Shown here piece by piece: positions 2,232 to 17,679 of a DNA stretch of 17,679 nucleotides; within the stretch, counting starts at the first letter, position 1; each line of letters starts with the position of its first letter. Location: IMG/VR virus record IMGVR_UViG_3300029234_000244, one strand, 5' to 3'. Position numbers and translations under genes: made by a program. The notes beneath the pieces are model-generated. The model was not told where the DNA came from. It ran no database searches and worked only from the letters and a program-made list of their open reading frames with translations. This DNA comes from a virus (Duplodnaviria; Heunggongvirae; Uroviricota; Caudoviricetes).

Positions 2232-3194
2232 TTATTCAATATCAAATAAATGCCTTGGGAAACCGTTATTATCAGGTAATCCCATGGCTGTCAGGTTACA
2301 TCCTGGTAAGTTAGGCTTGTTATCTACAAGGTTGGCAACTTTTTTTATCCAGTCAGATCCCGGTCCAATTTTTTTCACTAAAAACCATAACACAGCGATC
2401 ATTCCGTACATTCTTTCGTACGCATCATCATTCATATTTAATTGTTCAAAGTACGGCTCATTTGGCAAAGGCATTAATCTTGGTTCGTTGACCTTGTTCC
2501 AGATGCGTGAATGGTGAGCGCACCGATTCCTTAGCACATTCATTGCGCTAAGCCAGTTTTGGAAGATAGCTCCATTGCCTGCCGCTATCCCTAGCCTAGA
2601 TAGTATCCTGTTGCGATAGCTGTCTTTTAGCATCGCATAATACTTTGACATTAAGCCGAAGTCCCACACTTCAATAACCACCCAGAAAGGAAGACCTTCG
2701 TACTTGTTTTCATGCCATTTGATAAAGTCTTCGCGACTTTTAGCAATCTCGGCATTATGTTTATTTATCCATTCTTCTCTGGCGCTTGGGCGACCATGGG
2801 AACGTGGTCTAAAGTGTTTTGGATTTATTAGCGAGTCATCAAGATATGCTAAAGGAGATATCTTACCAAGCTCATGAGCAATAACTGACCGAACATAAAC
2901 CTCAATGCGTTCTAACGCATTCATCATCTGCAAACGCAGATTTTTATCGAATAAATAGAGGTCATATACTGCGCGAAAATTAGTACCTGGACGAACCTGA
3001 TCGAGTCTGGTTCTAATATTGTCTGTTGTTATATGGGGGATTCGGCAGGGGTACCAAAAGCCTGATAATCGGTAGTAGCCTACTTGTGAGATTTTCTTGA
3101 TAGCATGTTCGCGATCTGGCACATCCATACCCCGAGACAGCAATAAATCGACAAGTTCATCATATTCTTTATGAACCTTAACCGGAACAGCCAT
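2232..3194 (-). CDS. Abi_2-family abortive infection protein (AbiD/AbiF-like)
   Basis: 320-aa ORF with hallmark motifs GYYRLSGFWYP and LRNRCAHHSRIWN, and a typical N-terminus (YDELVDLLLSRGMDV). The gene is visibly AT-rich. Its stop is 1 nt from the stop of the convergent RHH gene. Confidence 0.8.
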   Translation of the reverse strand: MAVPVKVHKEYDELVDLLLSRGMDVPDREHAIKKISQVGYYRLSGFWYPCRIPHITTDNIRTRLDQVRPGTNFRAVYDLYLFDKNLRLQMMNALERIEVYVRSVIAHELGKISPLAYLDDSLINPKHFRPRSHGRPSAREEWINKHNAEIAKSREDFIKWHENKYEGLPFWVVIEVWDFGLMSKYYAMLKDSYRNRILSRLGIAAGNGAIFQNWLSAMNVLRNRCAHHSRIWNKVNEPRLMPLPNEPYFEQLNMNDDAYERMYGMIAVLWFLVKKIGPGSDWIKKVANLVDNKPNLPGCNLTAMGLPDNNGFPRHLFDIE

Positions 3195-4242: not shown

Positions 4243-6348
4243 TTATTGAGCTTCCTTTTGCGATGCTTGTGCGACTCTGGTGAGCGATTGTGTGACCGTA
4301 CTGATCGCTCTGTCATATGCTGTGCTACCTTTTGGCGTATTTGCCAGACGTAACAAGGCATTTCGTATAACAGGGCTTTCGTATGCCTTCGCTGCTCCGC
4401 CTACGGCACCAGCAGCAGGAACAACAAACGCAGCCGTTTTTAGCATCCCCGCTAATACTGCTGCGTTTATGATGCCACCACCAACTAACAATCCATAAAG
4501 CTGCTGACCATTTAAGTTTTGAACGTTCGCTTTTGCCGCGTGTCTTGTATCGTTGAGGTATTTAATAACGCCGTCCAGTTCCTTTCCATGTATGCCTTTA
4601 AAGAAAGTTGCTGATTGCTTCCTGTTCCGGTGTAACGCATTAATAAACTTCTCAACACTGATATTTCCAGACGGATCAGTCGCCTTATCTACAGCATTCT
4701 GAACTATGGCTGCTCGTGCGTTTTGCCTACCATTGTCATCCAGAAGCCTGTAAAGCTGAGAACGTTCTGATGGGCTTTGGCTAAAAACAAGTTTTGTTAC
4801 ATCCTCAGGCGTGGCCTTGCCGCTGGCTATTGCCTTTTGAACGCGCGTTCTTCCCATCATGTCATTGAATTTAGACCATGAGCGATCAACCCTTGCCATA
4901 TTAATAGCTTCGTCTGCTCCAAGATTTTTGGCTACGGCTTTTTTCATATCCGCCGTATATGCCTTGTAGATAATATCGCTGGCTTTCTGGAGCGTATCTT
5001 TATCAACAGTGTCAGATGACGCCATAAATCGCTTTCGAAGATCGGTTCTGTTTTCCCTCGCCAGACGCAGGTCATTTGGTCCGCTGGTGATATCGTCTTT
5101 AAATTGCTGCAAGACTTTTACCGCGGCTCTATCCTGAGATTTGCCCGGGCGGCTTAACACGGCAATCTGATTGTCGATAGCTTTTACCGTGTTTGAGAGA
5201 TCGACAGGGGTATCCCCCATAGCGTCAATTATGCGGTTATATCGCTTTCCTGCTGCCTCAATGAATTTTTGTTGCCCTTTAGTCGCAGATTCATAAAGCT
5301 GTTTATCAGAAATGCCACCCAGACCATCGCTAAATGTTCTGACTAAATTTTCTCGTGCTTGTTGTTGATTCAGCCGATTCTTACCGGTTCCAAAAAAAGG
5401 AACTCTTTCGCCTAATGTCTGAGCCTGACTCTGCATAAAGGTTTTATCTTTCAGCATGTCACTGGTCATTAACGGCAGATTTCTTTCCGATGCAAAGTCG
5501 ACAGCAGCCTTTGCTTCAGGCGACATATCACCACGAACAGCCCTCGAAACCGCACTCGCTGTATTTTCCAGCCCCTTACCAATACCACCAATGCCAGCAG
5601 AAATTACCGTTTGTAACGGATCAATATCTTCTCCACCAGCGAGGCTGGTGGCTCCCTGTAGTGCTAAATCTGTAGCTGCTGATTTCCCTATGGCCCCCAG
5701 CACCGTTCCGGCCCTGCCCGCTGGTGTAAACGCCAGCGCATTAGCCAGAAACGATGCCACGTCTTGCGGCGATAAACCCGGCTTGTTCAGAGCATAATCA
5801 CCGGATGGCAGGGAAACGATAGTGTTACCCTTCTCATCCTGCCTTAATTTCGCTCCCATGCTCTGAAGAATCTTTTCCTGAGATGCGTCAGAGCCGAAAA
5901 GTTGAGACCATCGAGCTTTTAGAGCATCCATGCTGAGTGAGGTTAACTCTGGGGCAAGGTCGACATTTTGCAGTCTCTCCATCTCTGGAGTCATTCGGCT
6001 TTCGCCTGTTATAGCATCGCGCATCGCAGCCCCAAGACTGGCTCCCTGTTCTGCTGAACGCTCAAGCCCCTCTCTTTGCTGAGTAGCTAACTTTGCATAC
6101 CCTGACGCAATAGAATTATCAGATGATGTATGTTGAATATTTTGAGTTGCTGATTGGGATCGGTCTATTTCATTCGTTGATGGTAGTGGATAGGCAGCAT
6201 AAAAAGCCTGCTTAGCCTGCTCTACACTTTCTCCGGCTTGCGGGGCAACGACTTCATTGAAGTATTGCTCCTGAGCCTGCGCTTTTTGTTCTGGTGCTAA
6301 CGCCTGATACTGTGGAGAGGCGATAACATCTTTCCATGCTTTAGCCAT
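4243..6348 (-). CDS. Hypothetical 701-aa protein, Ala/Gln/Gly-rich, C-proximal hydrophobic Gly/Ala segment
   Basis: Long ORF with GGGGTGA Shine-Dalgarno; its ATG overlaps the upstream stop (TAATG at 6346-6350). Contains LYGLLVGGGIINAAVLAGMLKTAAFVVPAAGAVGGAA about 60 aa from the C-terminus. I see no Walker A or other catalytic motif. Confidence 0.8.
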   Translation of the reverse strand: MAKAWKDVIASPQYQALAPEQKAQAQEQYFNEVVAPQAGESVEQAKQAFYAAYPLPSTNEIDRSQSATQNIQHTSSDNSIASGYAKLATQQREGLERSAEQGASLGAAMRDAITGESRMTPEMERLQNVDLAPELTSLSMDALKARWSQLFGSDASQEKILQSMGAKLRQDEKGNTIVSLPSGDYALNKPGLSPQDVASFLANALAFTPAGRAGTVLGAIGKSAATDLALQGATSLAGGEDIDPLQTVISAGIGGIGKGLENTASAVSRAVRGDMSPEAKAAVDFASERNLPLMTSDMLKDKTFMQSQAQTLGERVPFFGTGKNRLNQQQARENLVRTFSDGLGGISDKQLYESATKGQQKFIEAAGKRYNRIIDAMGDTPVDLSNTVKAIDNQIAVLSRPGKSQDRAAVKVLQQFKDDITSGPNDLRLARENRTDLRKRFMASSDTVDKDTLQKASDIIYKAYTADMKKAVAKNLGADEAINMARVDRSWSKFNDMMGRTRVQKAIASGKATPEDVTKLVFSQSPSERSQLYRLLDDNGRQNARAAIVQNAVDKATDPSGNISVEKFINALHRNRKQSATFFKGIHGKELDGVIKYLNDTRHAAKANVQNLNGQQLYGLLVGGGIINAAVLAGMLKTAAFVVPAAGAVGGAAKAYESPVIRNALLRLANTPKGSTAYDRAISTVTQSLTRVAQASQKEAQ

Positions 6349-7814
6349 TAATCACCCCATAGTGAAGAAAAGTTACTGCTGGCTGCTGGCTGTGATACCT
6401 GCTCAGATTGCGGCAATGTCTGCGACGAAGAAGAAGTTCCTCTGTCAACTGCTGAAATAACCCGCAAAGCATCATAAGTTCGACCAGAAGCAGCTTTCAG
6501 CGAATTGAACTGGTTTTCCATCTTCCGGCGCTTGGTATCAATGGTTTTTGTGGAGTCGCCAGGCTGAGGGAAATACATTTGATAATATTTTGACATTTCA
6601 GCAGGTGCGATAGCTGCCCCTGTTTCCTGACGGAGTATTGCCATTATTGCGTCATTAGCATTAACAACGTATTGCTGCTCTGCTGGGCTGAGCGTTAAGT
6701 TAGCCAGCGTCCCATTACCCAAAGCATTATTAATGATCGCCACTCGCTGTGGGCTAAGCTGGTCTTTCAGTGTATCTATTGAATCAAGAGCATCCCTAAC
6801 CCTGTATGCAAATCCAGCAGCTTTTTTAGCCCCTTCTGGCGACTTTTCCATGATCTTTTGGGCTGTTGGCAAAGCTATTGGACGAAACCCATCTCCAGAT
6901 ATTGGCTGGTTTAGTTTTCCCTGCTCTTCACTTCCGTCTGTGTAGTATTTTGTGACAGTGCCATCATCGTTTTCTCTAACACTCATTAATTTTTTGGTGT
7001 TTGTATTAATTCCAGCCGCTGCCGCAAATGCCGCCGCCCCCTCTGGATCAGCCTTTAACATTTGCGCGTACTGATTGTAATTCTGCATTGCTGCTGTTGG
7101 TGCATATGCTGACGTTAACGCATTTGCTCGGCTAATATCCTGCCCTCTCGCCTGAAGTGCTTCACCAGCCTGATTGCTGCGGATTGTCTCTGCCAACTTG
7201 CCACGCTCAATATCCCGACTTTCCATTTGATCTTTGATATCGAAATACTTCTCATGACCGAGAGAAAACAGCGCCAGATTACCTGCGAAATGCTGGAAGC
7301 CCTGCGGGTCATTAACCTGCATTTCAGCAATAGTTTCTGGAGGGATACCTAAACGACGCATCTCCTGCTCATTATCCATCATGAACCTGCCAAATGCGCC
7401 CGGACCAAGCGATGAGGCTACCTGTGCTTTGAGCGCCAGATTGCCATAATCATCCCTTTGAGCATCATCGACATAACTCATCCCTTTACGGACTTCCTCA
7501 AACTCTTCTGGGAATGCTGTAATAAGATTACGCATCTGCTCCCTGTCACCGGACGCATAAGCATCTGCATAACCTTTCTGGAATGCCGCTTTACGCTCCT
7601 GCTGTTGCTGCTGCTTATAAATATCAGCAACTCCAGCCAGACCACGAAGACCTGTCAGAGCAACGTTATTTGCACCTGATCGAGCCAGTTCATTGTTTTC
7701 GCGGATCAGACCAAGCGTTGCGTTAATGTCGCTTGCCTTTGGCGCATTCTCATTTTGCGTACCGATGCCAGCAAGAAACCCACCAGAATTAATACCCTGT
7801 TGCCACGTAGCCAT
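6348..7814 (-). CDS. Hypothetical 488-aa protein, Gln/Ala-rich, no recognisable domain
   Basis: Long ORF. I prefer ATG at 7814 (MATWQQGINSGG...), 4 nt after the stop of the 57-aa gene. The ORF track uses a GTG at 7826, which would overlap that gene. Stop overlaps the start of the 701-aa gene. Confidence 0.8.
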   Translation of the reverse strand: MATWQQGINSGGFLAGIGTQNENAPKASDINATLGLIRENNELARSGANNVALTGLRGLAGVADIYKQQQQQERKAAFQKGYADAYASGDREQMRNLITAFPEEFEEVRKGMSYVDDAQRDDYGNLALKAQVASSLGPGAFGRFMMDNEQEMRRLGIPPETIAEMQVNDPQGFQHFAGNLALFSLGHEKYFDIKDQMESRDIERGKLAETIRSNQAGEALQARGQDISRANALTSAYAPTAAMQNYNQYAQMLKADPEGAAAFAAAAGINTNTKKLMSVRENDDGTVTKYYTDGSEEQGKLNQPISGDGFRPIALPTAQKIMEKSPEGAKKAAGFAYRVRDALDSIDTLKDQLSPQRVAIINNALGNGTLANLTLSPAEQQYVVNANDAIMAILRQETGAAIAPAEMSKYYQMYFPQPGDSTKTIDTKRRKMENQFNSLKAASGRTYDALRVISAVDRGTSSSSQTLPQSEQVSQPAASSNFSSLWGD

Positions 7815-7818
7815 TGAT

Positions 7819-7992
7819 TTACCCACGTCCAGTTAAAGTGTAAGCCAGCGCCTTATCCATTAATCCCCGAGCAATTTCGTGGATCGTTGGCGCAACTCCT
7901 ACCTCTGATTTTTTACGCTGCTCCTCCTGAATTTTCTTTATCGCTTCCATTTGCTTCTCACTTATCAATACCGGCTTTACTGAAATAGCCAT
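7819..7992 (-). CDS. Small 57-aa protein, helix-rich, possible DNA-binding (HTH/RHH-like); first gene of the LexA-box operon
   Basis: Translated by hand: MAISVKPVLISEKQMEAIKKIQEEQRKKSEVGVAPTIHEIARGLMDKALAYTLTGRG. Shine-Dalgarno AAGGGGG lies 4 nt before the ATG at 7992. Below the 60-aa cut-off of the ORF track. Confidence 0.55.
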   Translation of the reverse strand: MAISVKPVLISEKQMEAIKKIQEEQRKKSEVGVAPTIHEIARGLMDKALAYTLTGRG

Positions 7993-8120: not shown

Positions 8121-8440
8121 CGTTCTGTGTGTCAGGTTTTGACAGGTTTTTTATGGACTCTAAAAACTATATTTATGGTGTCGCATTACTCTTCACGGCA
8201 GGCGCTTTTCAGTTCTGCCCTTGCTTCTGGCTCCATTGGTAATTTGATTCGCGATCAGCTATGCGGATGGTTTGCTGAACAGGCATAACAACTTCTCAGG
8301 GGCTGTTTTCTGAACTACGAAAATTTCGTAGTGCTCACTTTCAAAAACGTCACGCCCTTGTACACAGGATTTTACGAAAGTCTCGTAAAACACTCTCTGA
8401 TGCCAGCCAGGTGTTGAGCGCATCAATTCAGTCACATTGT

Positions 8441-8551
8441 GTTGGTTCAAAATACCGTGTTGTTGGTTCAGTGTTGGTTCAATAAAAAGAATAAAATCCT
8501 TACAAAACAATACTCTTTGCAAATTGAACCAACTGAACCAACTGAACCAAC
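8441..8551. repeat. Iteron cluster 2 (ori-like): 3 GTTGGTTCA at 21/11-bp spacing, AT-rich spacer, then 3 tandem TGAACCAAC
   Basis: GTTGGTTCA at 8441-8449, 8462-8470, 8473-8481. TGAACCAAC at 8525-8533, 8534-8542, 8543-8551. Located 25 bp after the primase stop. Inverted relative to cluster 1. Confidence 0.65.
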
Positions 8552-8576: not shown

Positions 8577-11333
8577 TCATTCTTCAGATGAGTTATAATC
8601 TCCTGGCTGGTAATTGAGTACATAAACGTTTATTTGTCGTCCCTGAATACGTGGTGATTTTCTTTGGTATCCACGACCGCTGTTTGGTGGGGTTAGCATC
8701 CCGGCTTTTTTCAACACTTCAGCAAACTGTTTTGCGTTGAAACCACATGCGATCTCCTTTTCAAATGTGGCCGGGAATGTGTAGAAAATCATTGGGCTTT
8801 CGTCATGTTCTCCACGCTGACGGTATCCGGCTAAATCTTTGATGGGCAAATCTGCCGGGCTGTATGGAAATGGTGCAAAACGGCTAAGCCCATAGGCATT
8901 AAGAAATGCCTCCGTTTGTTCAATAATCTGCTGATGTTCTTTGTTACCTGTGCCGAACTCGCGCAACCATGCGTTATAGCTGTGCTGTATCGCATCACGG
9001 CATGTCTGAGCATCCCAGCCTGTTACAACTTCGCCTAACAGCAATGCTGCCTCCAGAATGGCAAATCGCGCGGCTACACGGTGAACCTGCTCACCATAAT
9101 CGGATGGGATCAGGCTTCTCCATCTGCTTTCGCAATCACGAACAGTTTTAATAGCCTGTTGCTGGTGGTCTGCCAGCCATTTAATCCACTCACGCCCGGC
9201 TGCGCCGTGGTGATGCTGGTAAGCGTCTTTCAGTGCGTCTGCGTGCTGTTTTCCGTTCTGGTAATCGTGAAAGCGTACTGCTTTACTCAACGGAATATTC
9301 AGCAGTCGCACCAGTTGCCCGGCTTTGGTTTTTCGCCCGGAAGTAGCGATAAATGTTTCTAAATCCATTTCTCCGGTGCTGATTGCCACTGTACGCCAGC
9401 GTTTTAGATCCCGGTTTCCACCATCTTTAGCGCCTTGCAGTTTCCCTACACCGTTAAATAACGCATAGGCAGACTGTGAAACGCTGACAGGATCAGCGCC
9501 CTGACCAACTTCATCAAGCGGCATTAATCCGTCATTGTGGGCGGCGGCCTCATTTGCCAGCCCCAGCGCGGTTCCGTACCACGTCAGCCGCAGTAAATCA
9601 GGGTTGCCGTATAAGCTGCTCGCCACGTTTGCCGTGGTGGTCTTACCCGCGCTCGACTGCTCATAGAAATGAATGCCGAACCCGTCAGCGCCCACCAGCC
9701 CAATCAATGGCGCTGCCAGTGCTGCGCCGATCCCGGTCATCATTGAATAGTTACCAAAGGCCAGACGCGCCACGTTATCACGCCAGCTTTTCGCGCTCCC
9801 TGAGACGGTATATCCGGCTGCGGCTGAGCTTCTCCCGCTGAACAGCACAGGATTTTCAGGTGTTCCGATGATTTCCCCATCAGGCATGATGTACGCTCCG
9901 CATTGCCAGCCAGTGGCATGAGCAACACGCCACAATTCACGAGAGCCACTGCGTTGTAGCCAGTCTGCCAGTATTGCTCTGAGGCTGCTTTTGGTCGTGA
10001 CATTTACCCCACCAGCTTTAAGTGTGCGCCATCCTTCACGTTCACCAATATCAGCCAGTGGAATGGCAGCGGTTGTCGGCGTTTCAGAACCAAACGACAG
10101 CCAGCGAAGAATGAGATACTGGTCTTTATCGTCTCTGCCAGTACCGATAACGCTTAACGGAGAACATAACCAGCTTTCGTTATTGATGATTTCTCCACTC
10201 TGGCTGTCAGCTCTCGGAGATACCCAATAAATACCATCCTCGCGGCTTTCTATTCTTGGTTTCAGTGGGTCGGTATCCATAACCTTAAAATCGCTTCCCT
10301 CAATGGTCTGTGGCTCCTGTTTCACGCCATTACCCTGTGGTTGGTACATTGACTTATTGAACGCTTCTGTGGCGCATTTAATGCCGTGTTTTTGGTGGTA
10401 ATCATTCCAGTCTGCTTTGTGATCTGTCGGGGGTAATGCCACCCATCCAGAAACAGATAAAGCTGCTTTTTCTGCTGCTATTCTCCCCGTGTTTTGTCTT
10501 CCTTCGCTGTGGTCGTTATCCGCAGCAATGATGATTTGTGCTGAAGGAAATTTATCCCGCAGTACCTGGGCGACATATAACAGGTTCCCGGCATCAATCG
10601 CCGCCACTGTCAGCGCCTCTGGACGAATTAAATGGGCAGATAATGCCGTTGCCAGCCCTTCTGCGATTAAGATGCTCTGTGTTGTTTCTGGTGCGTTTAT
10701 GGCGTGATATGCCCCTCGCTTTGCTGAACCTGTCAGGAGTCTTTTTTCACCATGTGAGGTAATAGTCTGTGCTGCTGTGACTGCGCCGGATTTATCCACC
10801 AGCGCCAGCAACAGAGATCCATCGGGCAACACGGGGAATGTAAAATCACCTACCCCTTTCGCAACCAGATAATCAGATTTGCCGTTTACAGCCTTTCTGC
10901 GCATGTCATCAAACTGACGGGAAAACGTATCCCGTCTTTGTTGTTCGTCCTTCTCTGCCCTTTTCAGGCGCTCCTGTTCGCGTCGCTGGCGCTCGGTTTC
11001 CAGTTGTTCCCGTTTCTGGCTGGTGGCTTCTGGTGTTTCCGTTGTCCGGTAATCAATACCCAGAACATCAGCGGCAAGAAGCGCCGCCTCTGTTGTGTCG
11101 CAGTTATTTACGCGTTTAATTAAATCCAGCCCATCACCAGCGCCGCACTGATTACAGATGAAGCTACCGCGCCCGTTGTCATCGAACCGGAATCGATCTT
11201 TGCCCCCACATGCAGGGCAGGGAGCATGACGGCGCGGAGAGTCAGGGACATTTATGTTCAGGCAGCCCAGCACATGAGGCCAGTTGTTTTCAGACGCACT
11301 GATAACCTGACGGATAAGATCAATGTTTCGCAT
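8577..11333 (-). CDS. P4 alpha-like primase-helicase (zinc-ribbon + TOPRIM primase, C-terminal P-loop/origin-binding region)
   Basis: 918-aa ORF. N-terminal zinc ribbon CPACGG...FICNQCG. TOPRIM motifs LIAEGLATALS (conserved Glu) and IIIAADNDHSEG (DxD). P-loop-like SSAGKTT. Shine-Dalgarno GGGGG before the ATG at 11333. Confidence 0.9.
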   Translation of the reverse strand: MRNIDLIRQVISASENNWPHVLGCLNINVPDSPRRHAPCPACGGKDRFRFDDNGRGSFICNQCGAGDGLDLIKRVNNCDTTEAALLAADVLGIDYRTTETPEATSQKREQLETERQRREQERLKRAEKDEQQRRDTFSRQFDDMRRKAVNGKSDYLVAKGVGDFTFPVLPDGSLLLALVDKSGAVTAAQTITSHGEKRLLTGSAKRGAYHAINAPETTQSILIAEGLATALSAHLIRPEALTVAAIDAGNLLYVAQVLRDKFPSAQIIIAADNDHSEGRQNTGRIAAEKAALSVSGWVALPPTDHKADWNDYHQKHGIKCATEAFNKSMYQPQGNGVKQEPQTIEGSDFKVMDTDPLKPRIESREDGIYWVSPRADSQSGEIINNESWLCSPLSVIGTGRDDKDQYLILRWLSFGSETPTTAAIPLADIGEREGWRTLKAGGVNVTTKSSLRAILADWLQRSGSRELWRVAHATGWQCGAYIMPDGEIIGTPENPVLFSGRSSAAAGYTVSGSAKSWRDNVARLAFGNYSMMTGIGAALAAPLIGLVGADGFGIHFYEQSSAGKTTTANVASSLYGNPDLLRLTWYGTALGLANEAAAHNDGLMPLDEVGQGADPVSVSQSAYALFNGVGKLQGAKDGGNRDLKRWRTVAISTGEMDLETFIATSGRKTKAGQLVRLLNIPLSKAVRFHDYQNGKQHADALKDAYQHHHGAAGREWIKWLADHQQQAIKTVRDCESRWRSLIPSDYGEQVHRVAARFAILEAALLLGEVVTGWDAQTCRDAIQHSYNAWLREFGTGNKEHQQIIEQTEAFLNAYGLSRFAPFPYSPADLPIKDLAGYRQRGEHDESPMIFYTFPATFEKEIACGFNAKQFAEVLKKAGMLTPPNSGRGYQRKSPRIQGRQINVYVLNYQPGDYNSSEE

Positions 11334-12818: not shown

Positions 12819-13628
12819 GTGCCACCTCCATGCGGATACGACCAGCAAAAAAGCAGACGTGATCGCGCACCAGAGAACGGCGAGCATCGCGTTCAGACTC
12901 GGCAGCAATATGATGAATTTTGGCGGTAATTGTCGGGCAATCGCGGCGAACTGCGGCGATAATCCAGATAAATTGAGGTTTTTGGGTAGGGGTAGTAGCC
13001 AGCATGTGGCAGCCTCCTTGATTGATGGTTTATAGCCACCGCCCAAGAGACCAATCTTGCTGGCGGTGGACTGTACGGAGTTGGCCTTACTGGCAATCAA
13101 GGAAACCAGCCTACCCGAAGGTAGCCCCATACAGCCCACCATTGATAAGGTGTGCGTGTGCGCCGATACAAAAAAAGACGCTGGCGCGTCATGTATCGCC
13201 TCGATTGTCAGCGGGAGGCCAATCCCGGCACCCGTTTTATGAGGTGCTTTATAACCATAAACCGTGTTGCCGCATAACGGCAAGCTCTTTTTTATGGACT
13301 CCGAAAACTCAGTATTGGAAGCACCAGATGCACAGTACATCGCGCTCATTTCGTTAACGTCACGCACGTGGACGAATGTTTTTGTGGAGTCACTACACGA
13401 GCGGAAGACATCATCTACGACCAGAAATTTTCTGGCGCAGCCGCTGACCTTCTCAATGCTAATATCATCGCCCGAGATTTCTGGTATGGTTAAGGCATCC
13501 GTTCCGACCACCAGCAAATGATAAACTTTGCTTGCATCTGCTGTATTAATGCCTGACTTTGCCGTCATATTGCTGGATTTTGGCGACATACCTGCCAGTG
13601 AAAATGTCTTCTTCTGGACGGTTAGCAT
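12600..13628 (-). CDS. Hypothetical protein; 342-codon ORF that is probably composite (only the first ~205 codons, about 13012-13628, are well supported)
   Basis: ATG at 13628 has GGAGG Shine-Dalgarno and is coupled to the DUF4222 stop (ATGCTAA). The frame stays open to 12600, but codons about 208-270 run out of frame across the Icd-like gene and translate to low-complexity sequence. Codons 271-342 equal the separately supported 72-aa gene. Confidence 0.4.
12811..13005 (-). CDS. Host cell division inhibitor Icd-like protein (64 aa)
   Basis: ATG at 13005 preceded by a strong Shine-Dalgarno AGGAGG at 7-nt spacing. Protein [21 protein letters not shown]...[16 protein letters not shown] resembles Icd-like proteins of P4-like islands, from memory. 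Confidence 0.5.
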   Translation of the reverse strand: MLATTPTQKPQFIWIIAAVRRDCPTITAKIHHIAAESERDARRSLVRDHVCFFAGRIRMEVAHD

Positions 13629-14642: not shown

Positions 14643-15074
14643 TTAGGCGGCGTTAAACGCGTCCGGGTAGAGTTTCAGAATGTCGGCAATTTCCTGCTGA
14701 GAAAGTCCGTTGTGATCATTTATGTTCGCAAGATGGTTAACATGAGTGATCACTTTCAGAACATCACCACGGCAGGAGAAACGGTAGCGAAGGTGTGTTC
14801 CGATACCATCAGGATTCTTTTCGTCGATACGCTCCAGAGTGATTCCAAGCTGGCGTTCTAACTCTGTTGCATAGTTACGACCAGAAGACAGACGGCAGTA
14901 GCGAAGAATGTCATTTTCTGTCCATCCCTCTATACCAGTACGCAGCATATAGACTCGGGCACGATGCTTTTTCGGTGTGCGCTTTGGTGCTTGAAGGGAT
15001 TTTGTAAGGGGCGTAATATCAGATACGCGAATATCTGAATTAGCCGCCTGTAATGGGCGGTTTTTCTTTTCCAT
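14643..15074 (-). CDS. Hypothetical 143-aa protein
   Basis: ORF with ATGA overlap to the alpA stop (15072-15076); basic N-terminus; no recognisable motif. Confidence 0.65.
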   Translation of the reverse strand: MEKKNRPLQAANSDIRVSDITPLTKSLQAPKRTPKKHRARVYMLRTGIEGWTENDILRYCRLSSGRNYATELERQLGITLERIDEKNPDGIGTHLRYRFSCRGDVLKVITHVNHLANINDHNGLSQQEIADILKLYPDAFNAA

Positions 15075-15292
15075 CAGGCCACCTTCCCGCGGCGTTCTGC
15101 CAGCCAGTTATTAATTTCCACCGCATCAAACGCAGTCACGTTATCTGTTAGCTTCACTGGGCGTGGAAGAGTGCCATTTTTAACCCATCTATCAATAGTA
15201 GGCAGTGAAACACCTAGCAATTCCGGCATGCGAAAGCGACGGATGTATCCAGTTGTTGGGATAGCTGATGATGCTGGCTTGTGTGCTGTCAT
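15074..15292 (-). CDS. alpA: AlpA-family phage transcriptional regulator
   Basis: 72-aa ORF. MPELLGVSLPTIDRWVKNGTLPRPVKL...AFDAVEINNWL fits the AlpA HTH pattern (HTH followed by FP.P.KL and a W-containing tail). First gene of the coupled operon. Confidence 0.8.
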   Translation of the reverse strand: MTAHKPASSAIPTTGYIRRFRMPELLGVSLPTIDRWVKNGTLPRPVKLTDNVTAFDAVEINNWLAERRGKVA

Positions 15293-15357
15293 ATCTCTAG
15301 TAACCTCTCTGATAGCTCATGAAGTTACTTAAAGTTTAGTGGTTGCCCATACAGTAT

Positions 15358-15425
15358 TTCTATTAAGACTAGAATCTATTGAAAGAAATTATAAATCTAT
15401 TGAAAAAATACCGATCCACTGAAAG
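15358..15425. repeat. Phased direct repeats (ATCTATTGAAA-like, 21-bp register) upstream of alpA
   Basis: ttctattaaga (15358-15368), atctattgaaag (15374-15385), atctattgaaaa (15395-15406), tccactgaaag (15415-15425). Confidence 0.45.
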
Positions 15426-15580
15426 ATTGCAAATGCAGGTGGGATAATTATTTTCTTTATTTTCAATTAGTTACCAGTTTAAAAAATCATTGTTTTATCA
15501 AAGAGTTATATCTTTCATCGTCATTCATCATGTTTTTACATTTCTTTTTATCTTTTATTATTCAATTGGTTGAGTCGGTT

Positions 15581-15620
15581 TATAATGGCTCATGATGGCT
15601 TAAAATGGCTAATGATAGCT
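15581..15620. repeat. Four tandem 10-bp repeats (NNNNATGGCT) at helical periodicity
   Basis: tataATGGCT / catgATGGCT / taaaATGGCT / aatgATAGCT, with ATGGCT at 15585, 15595, 15605 and ATAGCT at 15615. Confidence 0.45.
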
Positions 15621-15763
15621 GGCGTATCTTTTAGAGATGGGGTGATTACAGATGAACTAAGCCGAACAGATATAGCAATGGCTAGGCATAGAATTATCTA
15701 TGCTGGTGGAGATGGGTAAACAGGTAATGCCCCGCCATTGCTTTGGAGGGGCGTGAAAAGTGA

Positions 15764-16414
15764 TTAGTCGAGATCGTGGACAGCTAATAAAGCCCGTGAG
15801 ATTTTTTCTAGGAATGTGGCTTTTGCTATTCCTTTATGGGATATCCCTTCATCCTTGATTAAGGTTTCTATGTCACGGTATATAGCTGTGCGATTAGGTT
15901 TCCCATTTTGGATGTAGGAAGATGAGCCTGATTTTTTTATCAGCAGATGTACTATCAACCCCATCATTTTCATTGTCCCGTTTTCCTCATCCTGCTTTCT
16001 ATGCTGCCCACGTCCGCTGCGGTTGGTTTCTTTGATGTAGTTTACTAACTGGAGTCCTCCAAGGTTTCGGGCTTTTTCTTCCCAGCCCTTGGTGCCACGC
16101 AAATCATCAATCGCTTCTGATATTTTCTGAACAATTATTTCTGGTGTATTTGTGTCAATAAATGGGTAAGAAGCTAAGAAAATATCAAGGGCATGGCAAG
16201 GCTCGTCTTTACTAGTTTTTTCACCTCTGTACACCTTGATAGCTCTGGCAAGATGAGTTCTGACAAAATCGACATATTCGAAATTTTCCTCAGGCACATC
16301 GCTAATGCGCATAGATGGGTTTAGGCCAGCCAAGGCCACAGCCATTTCATGAGGGGTAATCGATACAGATGAACAAAGCCGTTCGATTGGCGATTTTCTC
16401 AAGATGTTGTTCAC
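15764..16414 (-). CDS. Hypothetical 216-aa protein, AT-rich, translationally coupled to int
   Basis: GTG start at 16414 overlaps the int stop (GTGA) and follows a strong Shine-Dalgarno CCGGAGG at 5-nt spacing. No recognisable motif. Composition is visibly more AT-rich than the integrase. Confidence 0.65.
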   Translation of the reverse strand: MNNILRKSPIERLCSSVSITPHEMAVALAGLNPSMRISDVPEENFEYVDFVRTHLARAIKVYRGEKTSKDEPCHALDIFLASYPFIDTNTPEIIVQKISEAIDDLRGTKGWEEKARNLGGLQLVNYIKETNRSGRGQHRKQDEENGTMKMMGLIVHLLIKKSGSSSYIQNGKPNRTAIYRDIETLIKDEGISHKGIAKATFLEKISRALLAVHDLD

Positions 16415-17679
16415 ATTTGCCTCCGGGCTTTATCGAATGGCGTTACGTTGTAGTCTTTCCCGCTTTCCAGTGCCACCAGCAGATCAGCCCACAGTGCCAG
16501 TGCTGCTTTACGCTCATCAAAATACTGATGGCGGTTATAAATCCCCTCCACACCCTTAATGCGATGATTGAGGCATCGTTCCGCTACGACAGGATCAACA
16601 CCCAATGCTGCTAAATGAGTACGTGCGGTACGCCGGAAGTCGTGAATCGTGAAATTAGGCACATCCGGCATTTCGGCGCGAACCTTAGCCAGTGCTACGG
16701 GTAAAGTGCTTTCCTGAATATGTGGGATCATTCTGTTTTGCATCTTCCTGGCTGGAAGCACCCATGCGCTATTACATGAAAAGGTGTGTAGCTCTCTCAA
16801 CCATTCAACGGCAGGAGAAGGTAGAGGTATATCAATAGGGTCTCCGTTTTTGCTGCGTTCTTCCGGCAAATGCCATACCGCACCATCTAAATCAAACTCT
16901 TCCCATCGTGCGGCGCATAACTCCATCTTACGAACGCATAGTGCCAGCAATAGCTTAAATGTCAGTTCGTTCTGGCGGCTGAATCCTTTGGCTTTACGCA
17001 TTGCCTGAAAAAATTGGATTAATTCGTCACGGTTCAGCCAGCGATCACGAGATAATTCTTTCCCACCAGCATCTGATACTTCGAAAGCTGAGCAGGGATT
17101 TATCTCCAGAGCGTGGCGTTTTATCCCATAGTCAAAGATACGGCGTGTCCAGCGTAATACATCTGTTGCTATCGTTGGTGCTCCTCGGTCAACGATACCT
17201 TTCAACATGTCGTCAATGTGGCGTGGCTTAACGTCCTCTACCTTCATATGCCCAATGCAGGGGTTAATATCCTTATCAATTCTCCGGCGAAGGATATCGG
17301 GATGTTTCCATCTCGGAAGTATCTGTCGCTCGAAGTATTCGGCGGCCAGATCTGAAACGCGCATGGCGTTTTTCTCAGCCTCCATTTTTGCCAGTGCTTC
17401 AGCTTTTCGTTCCTGTTTCTCTGCTGCTACGTCATAGCCAAGAGCAACTCTGGCTGACAGCTCTTTTGCTGTTTCTCTGGCTTTTGATAGTGACAGTTCG
17501 GAGTAAGAGCCTATAACCATAGCCCGCTGCTTTCCTGCGAGCTTATAGCGGAATCGCCAGAACGGGACTGTGTAGTTTTTGGGGTAGCAAATATAAAGGC
17601 CGTTGCCGTCTGCCTTGCCATCAAATCTGTCTCCCGCCTTTATCCATGCGCGGATCTGCATATCTGTGAGTTTTGGCAT
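16411..17679 (-). CDS. int: Tyrosine-type site-specific integrase, P4-type (DUF4102 N-terminal arm-binding domain + catalytic domain)
   Basis: 422-aa ORF. N-terminal DGNGLYICY...FWRFRYK. Catalytic motifs HDFRRTARTHL and LNHRIKGVEGIYNRHQY (active-site Tyr). Start at the window edge. Confidence 0.95.
   Translation of the reverse strand: MPKLTDMQIRAWIKAGDRFDGKADGNGLYICYPKNYTVPFWRFRYKLAGKQRAMVIGSYSELSLSKARETAKELSARVALGYDVAAEKQERKAEALAKMEAEKNAMRVSDLAAEYFERQILPRWKHPDILRRRIDKDINPCIGHMKVEDVKPRHIDDMLKGIVDRGAPTIATDVLRWTRRIFDYGIKRHALEINPCSAFEVSDAGGKELSRDRWLNRDELIQFFQAMRKAKGFSRQNELTFKLLLALCVRKMELCAARWEEFDLDGAVWHLPEERSKNGDPIDIPLPSPAVEWLRELHTFSCNSAWVLPARKMQNRMIPHIQESTLPVALAKVRAEMPDVPNFTIHDFRRTARTHLAALGVDPVVAERCLNHRIKGVEGIYNRHQYFDERKAALALWADLLVALESGKDYNVTPFDKARRQM

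What the first reader, a model, noticed from the sequence alone, without database searches (positions are those of the whole stretch)
15764..16414. AT-rich orphan gene translationally coupled to the integrase (GTGA overlap): likely variable cargo in the int-proximal slot
The 216-aa ORF starts at a GTG that overlaps the int stop codon and has a near-ideal Shine-Dalgarno (GGAGG, 5-nt spacing), so it is co-expressed with int. It has no motif I can recognise and a composition unlike its neighbours. In P4-like satellites the int-adjacent position is a known hotspot for antiviral genes, so this may be a single-gene defence or an integration/excision accessory factor.
Basis: inference. Interest (0 to 1): 0.5.

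Follow-up and report, generated by a model that had tools for sequence, protein, structure and literature searches.

The report
Integrase-coupled gene in satellite switch cassette
This is a real, conserved but uncharacterised 216-aa gene read straight after the integrase of a phage-satellite island; it always travels with a conserved set of DNA boxes in front of the island's activator gene alpA, so it is more likely part of the island's on/off switch than random antiviral cargo, though neither role has been tested.

Summary
On the minus strand a 216-aa ORF (15764-16414) starts at a GTG that overlaps the int stop (GTGA). GGAGG lies 5 nt upstream. GC is 42.5% against 49% in int and alpA.

It is not an orphan. 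It belongs to phrog_30524, a small Enterobacterales satellite family under purifying selection.

The slot is variable. Of 335 E. coli genomes with this integrase, only about a third carry this gene. The rest carry one of about four other single uncharacterised genes. The swapped piece runs from 8 codons before the int stop to about codon 10 of alpA, so it includes the whole alpA control region.

In every close relative the gene abuts an integrase (ints 26-98% identical). Downstream come a hairpin, a 365-620 nt AT-rich spacer with 10-nt tandem arrays, four conserved TTTCAnTRGAA boxes, then alpA. The boxes track this gene, not the AlpA type.

AlphaFold gives a confident all-helical two-domain fold with no significant structural, Pfam, NCBIfam or PADLOC match.

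Best reading (about 0.4): a DNA-binding regulator, made with Int in the resting state, that controls the alpA promoter. Main rival (about 0.28): single-gene defence or interference cargo. Function is untested.

The parts
16411..17679 (-). int: P4-type tyrosine integrase, 422 aa. Its ATG is the last base of the window. Its last ~8 codons belong to the exchangeable cassette.
   Evidence: Pfam Arm-DNA-bind_3, Phage_int_M and Phage_integrase. Homology to islands with other cassettes ends at 16435-16439.
16420..16424 (-). Shine-Dalgarno GGAGG inside the int codons RRQ, 5 nt before the GTG start.
   Evidence: Read directly from the sequence. Purine-rich stretches occupy the same position in relatives.
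15764..16414 (-). The 216-aa gene, a phrog_30524 family member. GTG start overlaps the int TGA. The protein is all-helical with two domains.
15986..16012 (-). Codons 135-143: the family's most conserved motif, RGxHRKxDE. It lies in the low-confidence linker between the two domains.
   Evidence: Invariant or near-invariant columns R135 G136 R139 K140 D142 E143. pLDDT is below 50 at residues 133-138.
15767..16003 (-). C-terminal ~75-aa domain (residues 138-216): long helix, beta-hairpin, helix, loop, helix. The last helix starts with G-I-A-K-A-T-F-L-E-K-I, which resembles an HTH recognition helix. This domain is shared with remote relatives that have different middle regions.
15674..15742 (-). 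Structured, terminator-like inverted repeat just after the stop codon. It is the probable end of the int-ORF216 transcript.
   Evidence: Inverted repeat I2, 16-nt arms, 88% complementary. RNA fold -26.4 kcal/mol, z = -3.6. Hairpins follow the gene in relatives. The consensus scan found no canonical terminator on this strand.
15584..15620 (-). Period-10 tandem array. Plus strand reads AATGGCTnATGAT; in the gene's orientation it reads AGCCATnnTn, 3 copies. It is the window's version of the variable decamer arrays found after every family member.
15356..15424 (-). Conserved block of four direct boxes (TTTCAnTRGAA type, 19-21 nt apart) from about -132 to -64 relative to the alpA ATG. The last box lies where a -35 element would be.
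   Evidence: Direct repeat family D2. The first three boxes come from the box scan of 17 loci; the fourth is read off the alignment of nine upstream regions. The block is present in the same 111 E. coli genomes as the >=99% gene.
15074..15292 (-). alpA: AlpA-family wHTH regulator/RDF, 72 aa. Its first ~9 codons are part of the cassette.
   Evidence: Pfam Phage_AlpA. Homology to islands with other cassettes resumes at 15264/15260.
15265..16434 (-). The exchangeable cassette as a whole: int tail, gene, hairpin, arrays, boxes and the alpA 5' end.
   Evidence: blastn breakpoints against L003, L004, L005 and L006.

Best explanation
ORF216 is the protein component of an exchangeable switch cassette in a phage satellite of the Gram-negative PICI/P4 hybrid type.

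Proposed mechanism:
1. The gene is translated by coupling to int, so it is made together with integrase while the island is quiescent.
2. The int-ORF216 transcript probably ends at the hairpin right after the gene.
3. The protein's conserved C-terminal helical domain, which looks HTH-like, binds the four conserved TTTCAnTRGAA boxes. These sit on one face of the DNA over and upstream of the -35 region of the alpA promoter.
4. Through these boxes the protein sets whether AlpA, the activator and excision factor of the satellite cycle, is made.
5. The more variable N-terminal and middle part would receive the helper-phage signal.

The sign of the regulation is not known. It could be a repressor that is relieved, or a sensor-activator.

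The neighbouring period-10 arrays are most likely landing pads for RDF-type proteins (AlpA itself or helper Cox/Xis-like proteins). The model for this is the cox boxes upstream of P4 PLL.

Other cassettes (316, 321, 293 and 260-aa genes) would be alternative switch types.

Shown here: gene structure, coupling, family, synteny, cassette boundaries, and the co-occurrence of the gene with the boxes.
Inferred: DNA binding, the target, and the regulatory role.
For: 1. The gene and the box block stay together while everything around them is replaced.
- The boxes are present in 12 of 12 close family loci. Across these loci, int is 26-98% identical to the window's, and the sampled AlpA proteins from ORF216 loci (L002, L008, L011, L012, L022) are 15-34% identical.
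- The boxes are absent from 3 of 3 alternative cassettes, although the AlpA of these cassettes is 75-79% identical to the window's.
- In viral contigs, 2 of 2 assessable true box blocks have a family gene upstream.
- In E. coli the block occurs in the same 111 genomes as the >=99% gene.

2. The exchanged unit includes the whole alpA control region. The int-ORF216-alpA module is shared at 98% with satellites that have different backbones (L001, L016, L017).

3. Coupling to int is conserved at -8 to +1 nt in 14 of 15 close relatives. Remote relatives keep the order int-X-alpA or int-X-HTH_17 (L026, L027).

4. The slot always holds exactly one gene, in the same orientation. About six gene types account for essentially all 335 int-positive genomes. 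Each occurs once per genome (two at most for the ORF216 family) and none has a significant PADLOC match; o321 has a marginal one at E=0.002 and o260 was not tested.

5. The C-domain is the most widely conserved part of the protein. Its last helix begins G-[IL]-[AS]-[KR]-[AS]-T-x-x-x-K-I, as in resolvase/Hin-type HTH motifs. Members give scattered weak wHTH/HTH Pfam hits.

6. The literature says a global regulator upstream of AlpA in Gram-negative PICIs is 'unclear' and that alpA is switched on only by the helper (PMC6092414; PMC11773190).

7. In a pair of active cf-PICIs, one of which probably carries a family member, the int-alpA interval is not listed among the variable or immune regions (10.1101/2025.02.11.637232).
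Against: - The loop between the two putative HTH helices is 8 residues, longer than in a classical HTH.
- The boxes are better conserved than any satellite protein. ORF216 is only 28-31% identical between branches. A conserved host factor could equally be the binder.
- Co-occurrence could be plain physical linkage inside one cassette.
- The island already has a P4-type RNA immunity system, C4 and isrK. A protein repressor is therefore not strictly required.
- Remote relatives L026 and L027 lack the boxes.
- No expression or binding data exist.
Confidence: 0.4

Rival explanations
1. Single-gene antiviral or interference cargo. The protein is made constitutively with Int. It blocks an incoming or helper phage by binding a phage protein, in the manner of Tai, Ppi or superinfection-exclusion proteins. 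The slot would then be the 5' immune hotspot of PICIs.
For: - The slot content differs among islands with the same integrase.
- GC is lower than in the flanking genes.
- The literature places PICI immune systems at the 5' or 3' ends (PMC11364771).
- A related satellite, EcCIMP1, gives unexplained superinfection immunity without any known defence gene (PMC11773190).
- A small all-helical protein with no enzymatic domain fits a binder or inhibitor.
Against: - There is no PADLOC hit for this gene or for the o316 and o293 occupants; o321 has only a marginal hit at E=0.002, and o260 was not tested.
- No multi-gene or known system was seen in the slot in any of the 9 E. coli yicC islands sampled.
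- Every occupant type tested occurs once per genome (two at most for the ORF216 family).
- The family is present in satellites with very different helper relationships: cf-PICI, P4-like with Ogr/Delta, and one carrying P22 ejection genes. The C-domain is conserved across all of them. This argues for a conserved satellite or host partner rather than a phage target.
- The gene is always linked to the box block.
Confidence: 0.28
2. Integrase partner. The protein is made in fixed ratio with Int and modulates recombination. It could stabilise the integrated state, inhibit excision, or help intasome assembly. It would not act on transcription.
For: - Translational coupling is conserved across integrase types.
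- All partner integrases are of the P4 type with an Arm-DNA-bind_3 domain.
- The cassette also carries the last ~8 residues of Int.
- The conserved charged linker RGxHRKxDE could be an interaction motif.
Against: - The same integrase (96-98% identical) works at the same yicC site with unrelated slot genes.
- One protein branch pairs with integrases that are 26%, 75% and 89% identical to the window's, so there is no co-evolution with Int.
- A dedicated RDF (AlpA) is already present.
- No boxes or arrays lie near the att-proximal side of int.
Confidence: 0.12
3. Episome-state function. A DNA-binding protein acts on the neighbouring period-10 arrays as a centromere-like or origin-associated element when the satellite is a plasmid. 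This would give partition or copy-number control, as in the P4 plasmid state.
For: - Arrays with a 10-nt period lie right after the gene in all close relatives.
- In P4 the equivalent place upstream of vis is the annotated ori.
- Some relatives carry P4 type-1-like TGTTCAYC iterons there.
- A 12.15-kb circular form with the gene was assembled as a plasmid.
Against: - The window's primase iterons (GTTGGTTCA) lie after the primase gene and at 1552-1578, not in this spacer.
- Array units differ between loci with similar proteins, and several different units sit side by side.
- Islands with other cassettes lack arrays yet share the same primase.
- No partner NTPase is present.
Confidence: 0.06

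Closest known systems
SaPI/PICI master repressor Stl (Rpr) of Gram-positive PICIs
   Same: It is encoded next to int and expressed in the quiescent state. It is highly diverse between otherwise similar islands. It is proposed to couple island activation to a helper signal and to act on the promoter of the activation/excision genes (background from PMC6092414).
   Different: - There is no detectable homology.
- The putative DNA-binding part is C-terminal, not an N-terminal HTH.
- The gene is co-directional with alpA rather than divergent from the regulated operon.
- It is translationally coupled to int.
- DNA binding and derepression are untested.
- The island also carries P4-type RNA immunity.
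P4 PLL control region: vis/ORF88 with cox boxes and ori
   Same: An AlpA-like gene is preceded by an AT-rich region. That region carries 10-nt tandem repeats where a helper RDF (P2 Cox) binds to switch the satellite on (PMC3936717).
   Different: - P4 has no ORF216 homologue.
- In P4 this region abuts sid, not int.
- The four TTTCAnTRGAA boxes are not in P4.
- In the window the primase origin is elsewhere (8440-8551).
Defence hotspots of P4-like satellites and the 5' accessory region of PICIs
   Same: Content is variable between conserved core genes, and exchange happens by recombination in the flanks (PMC11364771).
   Different: - The slot here always holds one gene from a handful of satellite-specific families.
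- No recognisable defence system is present.
- The exchanged piece contains the alpA promoter region.
Lambdoid immunity regions (repressor plus operators swapped as a block)
   Same: A regulator gene and its cis sites travel together as a cassette, bounded by recombination points in conserved flanking genes. This gives alternative types on one backbone.
   Different: This is an analogy only. There is no homology, and no evidence yet that cassette type sets immunity or induction specificity.
EcCIMP1_002, the gene between int and alpA in PICI EcCIMP1
   Same: It occupies the same slot in an experimentally active E. coli PICI whose helper, Kapi1, is P22-like by my own knowledge. Its function is unknown (PMC11773190).
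   Different: It is a much smaller, unrelated protein, about 10% of the size of UvrB according to the paper.

Membership tests
phrog_30524 (uncharacterised phage/satellite protein family) | Full-length match to the family profile. | tested here: met
   E=3e-34, residues 11-209 against profile positions 14-213 of 220.
Known anti-phage defence systems (PADLOC-DB v2) | Match to any defence protein model. | tested here: not met
   No family at E<=0.01 for this gene. At E<=0.1, o316 and o293 have no hit and o321 has only a marginal one (PDC-S31, E=0.002, 15.6 bits). AbiD elsewhere in the window scores 2.7e-57, so the search works.
Defence-hotspot cargo (P4-like or PICI 5' region) | Variable content between conserved flanking core genes. 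| tested here: met
   Breakpoints at 16435-16439 and 15260-15264. About six occupant types.
Defence-hotspot cargo (P4-like or PICI 5' region) | The same genes or recognisable defence systems also occur in other hotspots or contexts, and the slot can be empty or hold several genes. | tested here: not met
   One place per genome (two at most for the ORF216 family) for each occupant type tested. Exactly one gene in all 9 sampled E. coli yicC islands. All family loci with upstream sequence available are next to an integrase.
Defence-hotspot cargo (P4-like or PICI 5' region) | Confers phage resistance when expressed. | not testable with these tools
   Needs efficiency-of-plating assays.
Recombination directionality factor (Xis/AlpA/Cox/Vis wHTH) | Small (about 60-120 aa) winged-helix protein matching Phage_AlpA, HTH_17 or excisionase profiles. 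| tested here: not met
   216 aa with no Pfam match at E<=0.01. A separate AlpA is encoded at 15074-15292.
Stl/Rpr-type satellite master repressor | Recognisable HTH DNA-binding domain. | tested here: inconclusive
Stl/Rpr-type satellite master repressor | Transcribed divergently from the operon it controls. | tested here: not met
   The gene is co-directional with alpA and lies downstream of int.
Stl/Rpr-type satellite master repressor | Binds operators at the regulated promoter and is released by a helper protein. | not testable with these tools
   Only the co-occurrence of the gene with the box block is shown.
Gram-negative PICI / P4-like satellite (the element that carries the gene) | Inward-facing int, then alpA, a Bro/Ash zone with C4/isrK RNA, a primase with an iteron origin after it, and captured helper late genes. 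| tested here: met
   int, AlpA, AntA, Ash, TOPRIM+DUF927 primase and P22 Inj_translocase. C4 and isrK. GTTGGTTCA x3 / AT-rich / TGAACCAAC x3 at 8440-8551. The zones are as described in PMC10111431.

The most novel reading that the evidence does not exclude
ORF216-family proteins, and by extension the other single genes in the int-alpA slot, are the missing helper-sensing master regulators of Gram-negative PICI/cf-PICI/P4-like satellites. Each cassette is a regulator plus its operators. It decides which helper signal turns on alpA, so cassette swapping re-tunes a satellite to new helpers, much as immunity regions do in lambdoid phages.
Probability: 0.25. Interest if true: 0.75.

Novelty: new variant of a known kind. 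Interest (0 to 1): 0.52.

Why it matters
How Gram-negative phage satellites stay silent, and how they sense their helper, is unresolved. AlpA is known to be an activator that appears only when the helper is induced. Whether a global regulator lies upstream of it is described as unclear (PMC6092414).

This gene family gives a concrete candidate. It is made with integrase in the resting state. It is always linked to a conserved four-box element at the alpA promoter. It sits in a cassette that is swapped between otherwise identical satellites.

About 4% of complete E. coli genomes carry a family member, including O157:H7 strains, and so probably does the experimentally tractable cf-PICI KpCIDSM30104. 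The idea can therefore be tested directly with existing strains.

If the gene is instead a defence gene, it would be a new single-protein system with a new fold.

Tried and rejected
- Homology searches gave no function. Pfam, NCBIfam and PADLOC found nothing. A PDB sequence profile search found nothing meaningful.
- I tested whether the other slot genes are distant homologues that share the C-domain. MAFFT suggested a common C-terminal helix. The formal tests were not significant: hhalign E=0.05-0.6, phmmer E>=0.02 in a tiny database, and a C-domain HMM at E=1.7. I rejected the idea as unproven and kept it as a weak lead.
- I considered the spacer as the island's replication origin. I rejected this for the window because the primase iterons lie elsewhere, and islands with the same primase lack the spacer.
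- I considered the arrays or boxes as integrase arm sites. I rejected this because they lie about 1.9 kb or more from att, and none is upstream of int.
- I considered the boxes as AlpA autoregulatory sites. This is unlikely. The boxes occur with three very different AlpA types and are missing where AlpA is 75-79% identical.
- An exact 16-mer scan of viral contigs gave mostly chance hits. Only 3 of 40 were true blocks.
- The search for related loci with the two-branch alignment failed because no stretch was conserved enough.
- The Fillol-Salom 2022 Cell paper on PICI immune systems is not in the library.

Full report
**1. The observation**

The feature is on the minus strand. A 216-codon ORF runs from GTG at 16414 to a TAA that ends at 15764. 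The int stop TGA is at 16413-16411, so start and stop overlap as GTGA. GGAGG is at 16424-16420, 5 nt before the GTG. int (16411-17679) is a P4-type tyrosine recombinase.

GC is 42.5% for the ORF, 48.9% for int, 49.8% for alpA and 34.0% for the spacer after the ORF.

The gene is real:
- Relatives start with ATG at the homologous codon and share the N-terminus.
- Non-synonymous differences are 0.18-0.30 per site where synonymous sites are saturated at 0.77-0.88.
- AlphaFold2 gives a confident model, pLDDT 87.6.

**2. What element this is**

On the minus strand, after the ORF, the window encodes in order:
- an AlpA-family regulator (15074-15292);
- a 143-aa protein;
- AntA;
- an Ash-family gene that contains C4 and isrK RNAs (13059-13247);
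- a TOPRIM+DUF927 primase (8577-11333);
- an origin of the PICI kind, GTTGGTTCA x3 / AT-rich / TGAACCAAC x3 (8440-8551);
- two P22 ejection-protein homologues (4243-7826);
- AbiD (2232-3194).

The order matches the four-zone layout described for Gram-negative PICIs: integration, Bro/immunity-RNA, replication and captured late genes (PMC10111431). It also has P4-type RNA immunity.

In complete E. coli genomes these islands lie beside yicC. A 12.15-kb circular version carrying the same gene has been assembled as a 'plasmid'. This suggests the element excises.

**3. The family**

The protein matches phrog_30524, function unknown, at E=3e-34. It matches nothing in Pfam, NCBIfam or PADLOC.

Database searches give two branches of about 216-aa proteins:
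- Branch 1: E. coli, Salmonella and Buttiauxella, 65-100% identical to the window protein.
- Branch 2: Klebsiella, Rahnella, Yersinia, Serratia, Xenorhabdus, Proteus and Providencia, 27-32% identical.

An exhaustive profile search of 1.84 billion representatives finds only 65 clusters. Some of them share only an N-terminal motif (EAAxLLxGxDP type) and the C-terminal ~75-aa domain.

The last helix begins G-[IL]-[AS]-[KR]-[AS]-T-x-x-x-K-I. From my own knowledge this resembles resolvase/Hin-type recognition helices. It is a lead, not a test.

**4. Is the slot variable?**

Yes. The integrase DNA is found in 335 genomes, but only 111 carry int plus this gene. In the others homology stops at window 16435-16439. 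blastn shows that homology resumes at 15264/15260, inside alpA.

The exchanged piece is therefore 15265-16434. It holds the int tail, the gene, the whole alpA upstream region and about 9 alpA codons.

The alternative occupants are single genes of 316, 321, 293 and 260 aa. EcCIMP1 has a small unrelated ORF in the same place.

Census in E. coli records:

| Occupant | Records |
|---|---|
| This gene, >=99% identical | 114 |
| Its ~70% branch (includes an O157:H7 strain examined here, L024) | 91 |
| 321-aa type | 77 |
| 316-aa type | 41 |
| 293-aa type | 13 |
| 260-aa type | 12 |

Each type tested occurs once per genome (two at most for the ORF216 family). Of the four slot genes scanned, three have no PADLOC match and o321 has a marginal one at E=0.002; o260 was not scanned. 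The 316, 321 and 260-aa genes form a mosaic family of their own. Homology between these genes and ORF216 is not demonstrable.

**5. What stays constant around the gene**

In the close family loci examined in detail the order is the same:
- a P4-type integrase, 26% to 98% identical to the window's;
- the gene, with a gap of -8 to +1 nt in 14 of 15 cases;
- a hairpin;
- a 365-620 nt AT-rich spacer;
- an AlpA-family gene; the sampled AlpA proteins are 15-34% identical to the window's.

The spacer has two parts.

(a) Two to four arrays of exactly 10-nt tandem repeats. Their sequences differ between loci. Their copy number differs between near-identical loci. Examples are CATTCAACAG x4 against x6, and CCGTGCCAGT x4 against x2.

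(b) A block of four TTTCAnTRGAA boxes, 19-21 nt apart, between about -60 and -132 from the alpA ATG. It is strongly conserved from E. coli to Proteus.

Cassettes with other genes have only 106-114 nt before alpA, with neither arrays nor boxes.

Remote relatives keep the order int-X-alpA or int-X-HTH_17. One is a Pantoea P4-like element at yicC. Another is a metagenomic contig.

**6. Interpreting the cis elements**

In P4, the annotated 'ori type 2 repeats' are three tandem decamers upstream of the alpA homologue vis. Read on the other strand they give TTAAAGCCA. That is the cox-box consensus TTAAAG/CNCA.

P2 Cox binds such boxes, spaced 10-11 bp apart, upstream of P4 PLL to derepress the satellite (PMC3936717). 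RDF sites in general are direct repeats one helical turn apart (PMC7498355 abstract). I therefore read the variable decamer arrays as RDF-type landing pads, for AlpA itself or for helper proteins.

The window's array unit resembles TCATGAGCTATC. That motif also occurs at the alpA start and about 110 nt upstream of int in L001, with a near-variant (TTAATGGCTATC) at the same place in L024. This fits AlpA acting at both att and its own promoter.

The four boxes are different. They co-occur with ORF216 regardless of AlpA type. They are absent where AlpA is 75-79% identical but ORF216 is replaced. In viral contigs, both assessable true blocks have the gene upstream. In E. coli the block occurs in the same 111 genomes as the gene.

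Integrase, alpA and the arrays in between have all been replaced during the family's history. The gene and the boxes have stayed together. Functional coupling is therefore more likely than mere linkage.

**7. Mechanism proposed, and its weakness**

I propose that the protein is made with Int in the quiescent state. It binds the four boxes through its C-domain and gates the alpA promoter. The variable N-terminal and middle part would receive the helper signal. The sign of regulation is unknown.

This would fit an open question. AlpA is an activator that is expressed only when the helper is induced, and whether a global repressor exists is 'unclear' (PMC6092414; PMC11773190).

In the pair of cf-PICIs EcCIGN02175 and KpCIDSM30104, the int-alpA interval is not among the variable or 'immune' regions. 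KpCIDSM30104 probably carries the branch-2 gene. I base this on L007 being K. pneumoniae ATCC 13883, which by my own knowledge is the same strain as DSM 30104.

Weak points:
- No DNA-binding fold is demonstrated.
- The boxes are more conserved than the protein, so a host factor could bind them.
- The island already has RNA immunity.
- Remote relatives lack the boxes.
- There are no experimental data.

I put this explanation at 0.4.

**8. Rivals**

- Defence or interference cargo, 0.28. It fits the variable slot, the literature on the PICI 5' ends and the unexplained immunity of EcCIMP1. It fits poorly with the single-gene, single-context, PADLOC-negative census and with conservation across satellites that use different helpers.
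- An Int partner, 0.12. It fits the coupling but not the free re-assortment of gene and integrase.
- A plasmid-state or origin function, 0.06. It fits the arrays and the P4 ori position, but not the location of the window's primase iterons.
- An RDF role is rejected because AlpA is present and the protein is not a small wHTH.

**9. Verdict**

The gene is coupled to int and the slot is variable. It overstates 'orphan' and 'defence'.
- The thing itself is a member of a catalogued but uncharacterised satellite family. It sits in an exchangeable regulatory cassette, and a testable regulatory role is proposed.
- Novelty: new variant of a known kind (satellite switch proteins).
- Interest: 0.52.

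Noticed in passing
window 8440-8551 and 1552-1578: Right after the primase gene there is a PICI-type replication origin: GTTGGTTCA x3, an AT-rich spacer, then TGAACCAAC x3 in inverted orientation. A second GTTGGTTCA x3 set lies about 7 kb away at 1552-1578. The arrangement recalls the P4 ori/crr pair.
   Followed up: partly
window 13059-13146 and 13171-13247 (minus strand): C4 antisense RNA (79 bits) and isrK RNA (65 bits) lie inside the Ash-family gene. This is a P4 CI/seqA-type RNA immunity system in an island that otherwise looks like a PICI.
   Followed up: partly
window 4243-7826 (minus strand): Two large genes are homologous to P22 ejection (DNA transfer) proteins gp20/gp16: a Pfam Inj_translocase match and 86-92% DNA identity to P22-like phages. 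They are helper late genes captured by the satellite and hint at a P22-like helper. Their role in the island is unknown.
   Followed up: partly
window 2232-3194 (minus strand): An AbiD/Abi_2 abortive-infection gene (PADLOC 2.7e-57) sits in the distal part of the island. This is where recognisable defence cargo actually lies in this element.
   Followed up: no
window 15260-15271 and 15311-15322; L001 and L024 about 110 nt upstream of int: The motif TCATGAGCTATC (GATAGCTnATGA on the plus strand) flanks the alpA start codon and recurs between att and int, exactly in L001 and as the near-variant TTAATGGCTATC in L024. It resembles the window's decamer array unit AGCCATnnTn. These are candidate AlpA (RDF) binding sites at both the promoter and the attachment site.
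   Followed up: partly
L002, L015, L019, L021, L022 and others: spacer between the family gene and alpA: There are two to four adjacent arrays of exactly 10-nt tandem repeats per locus, with different units in different loci. Copy number varies between near-identical elements (x4 against x6, x4 against x2). Some units look like P4 type-1 iterons (TGTTCAYC).
   Followed up: partly
L023 (phage P4) 9176-9205: The three tandem decamers annotated in the P4 record as 'ori type 2 repeats' read TTAAAGCCA on the other strand. This is the published cox-box consensus for P2 Cox binding upstream of PLL.
   Followed up: partly
L069 (NZ_CP148430.1, 12,152 bp circular): A record deposited as a non-mobilizable E. 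coli plasmid is a complete compact satellite of this family: int, the 216-aa gene, the 143-aa gene, AntA, Icd, primase and PerC. It is probably the excised circular form. A Raoultella 17.8-kb 'plasmid' also carries a family member.
   Followed up: partly
L003 5023-5973, L004 4921-5886, L072 2614-3396: The alternative slot genes of 316, 321 and 260 aa are a domain-shuffled family. The 316 and 321-aa genes share a 78% identical C-terminal 74 aa. The 260-aa gene matches the 321-aa gene over 235 aa at 24% identity, and matches the N-terminus of the 316-aa gene. Their N-termini have an AlpA/MerR-like HTH pattern.
   Followed up: partly
L003 and L004, about 60 nt upstream of alpA; L006 similar: Cassettes without the 216-aa gene have their own conserved element just before alpA: CGTAAC-N23-GTTACG, an inverted repeat that follows a canonical terminator. 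This suggests a different way of controlling alpA.
   Followed up: no
L001 and L024, 60-150 nt upstream of int: Repeated GTGTACA/GGTGTAC motifs lie between att and the int start. They are probably integrase arm-type sites.
   Followed up: no
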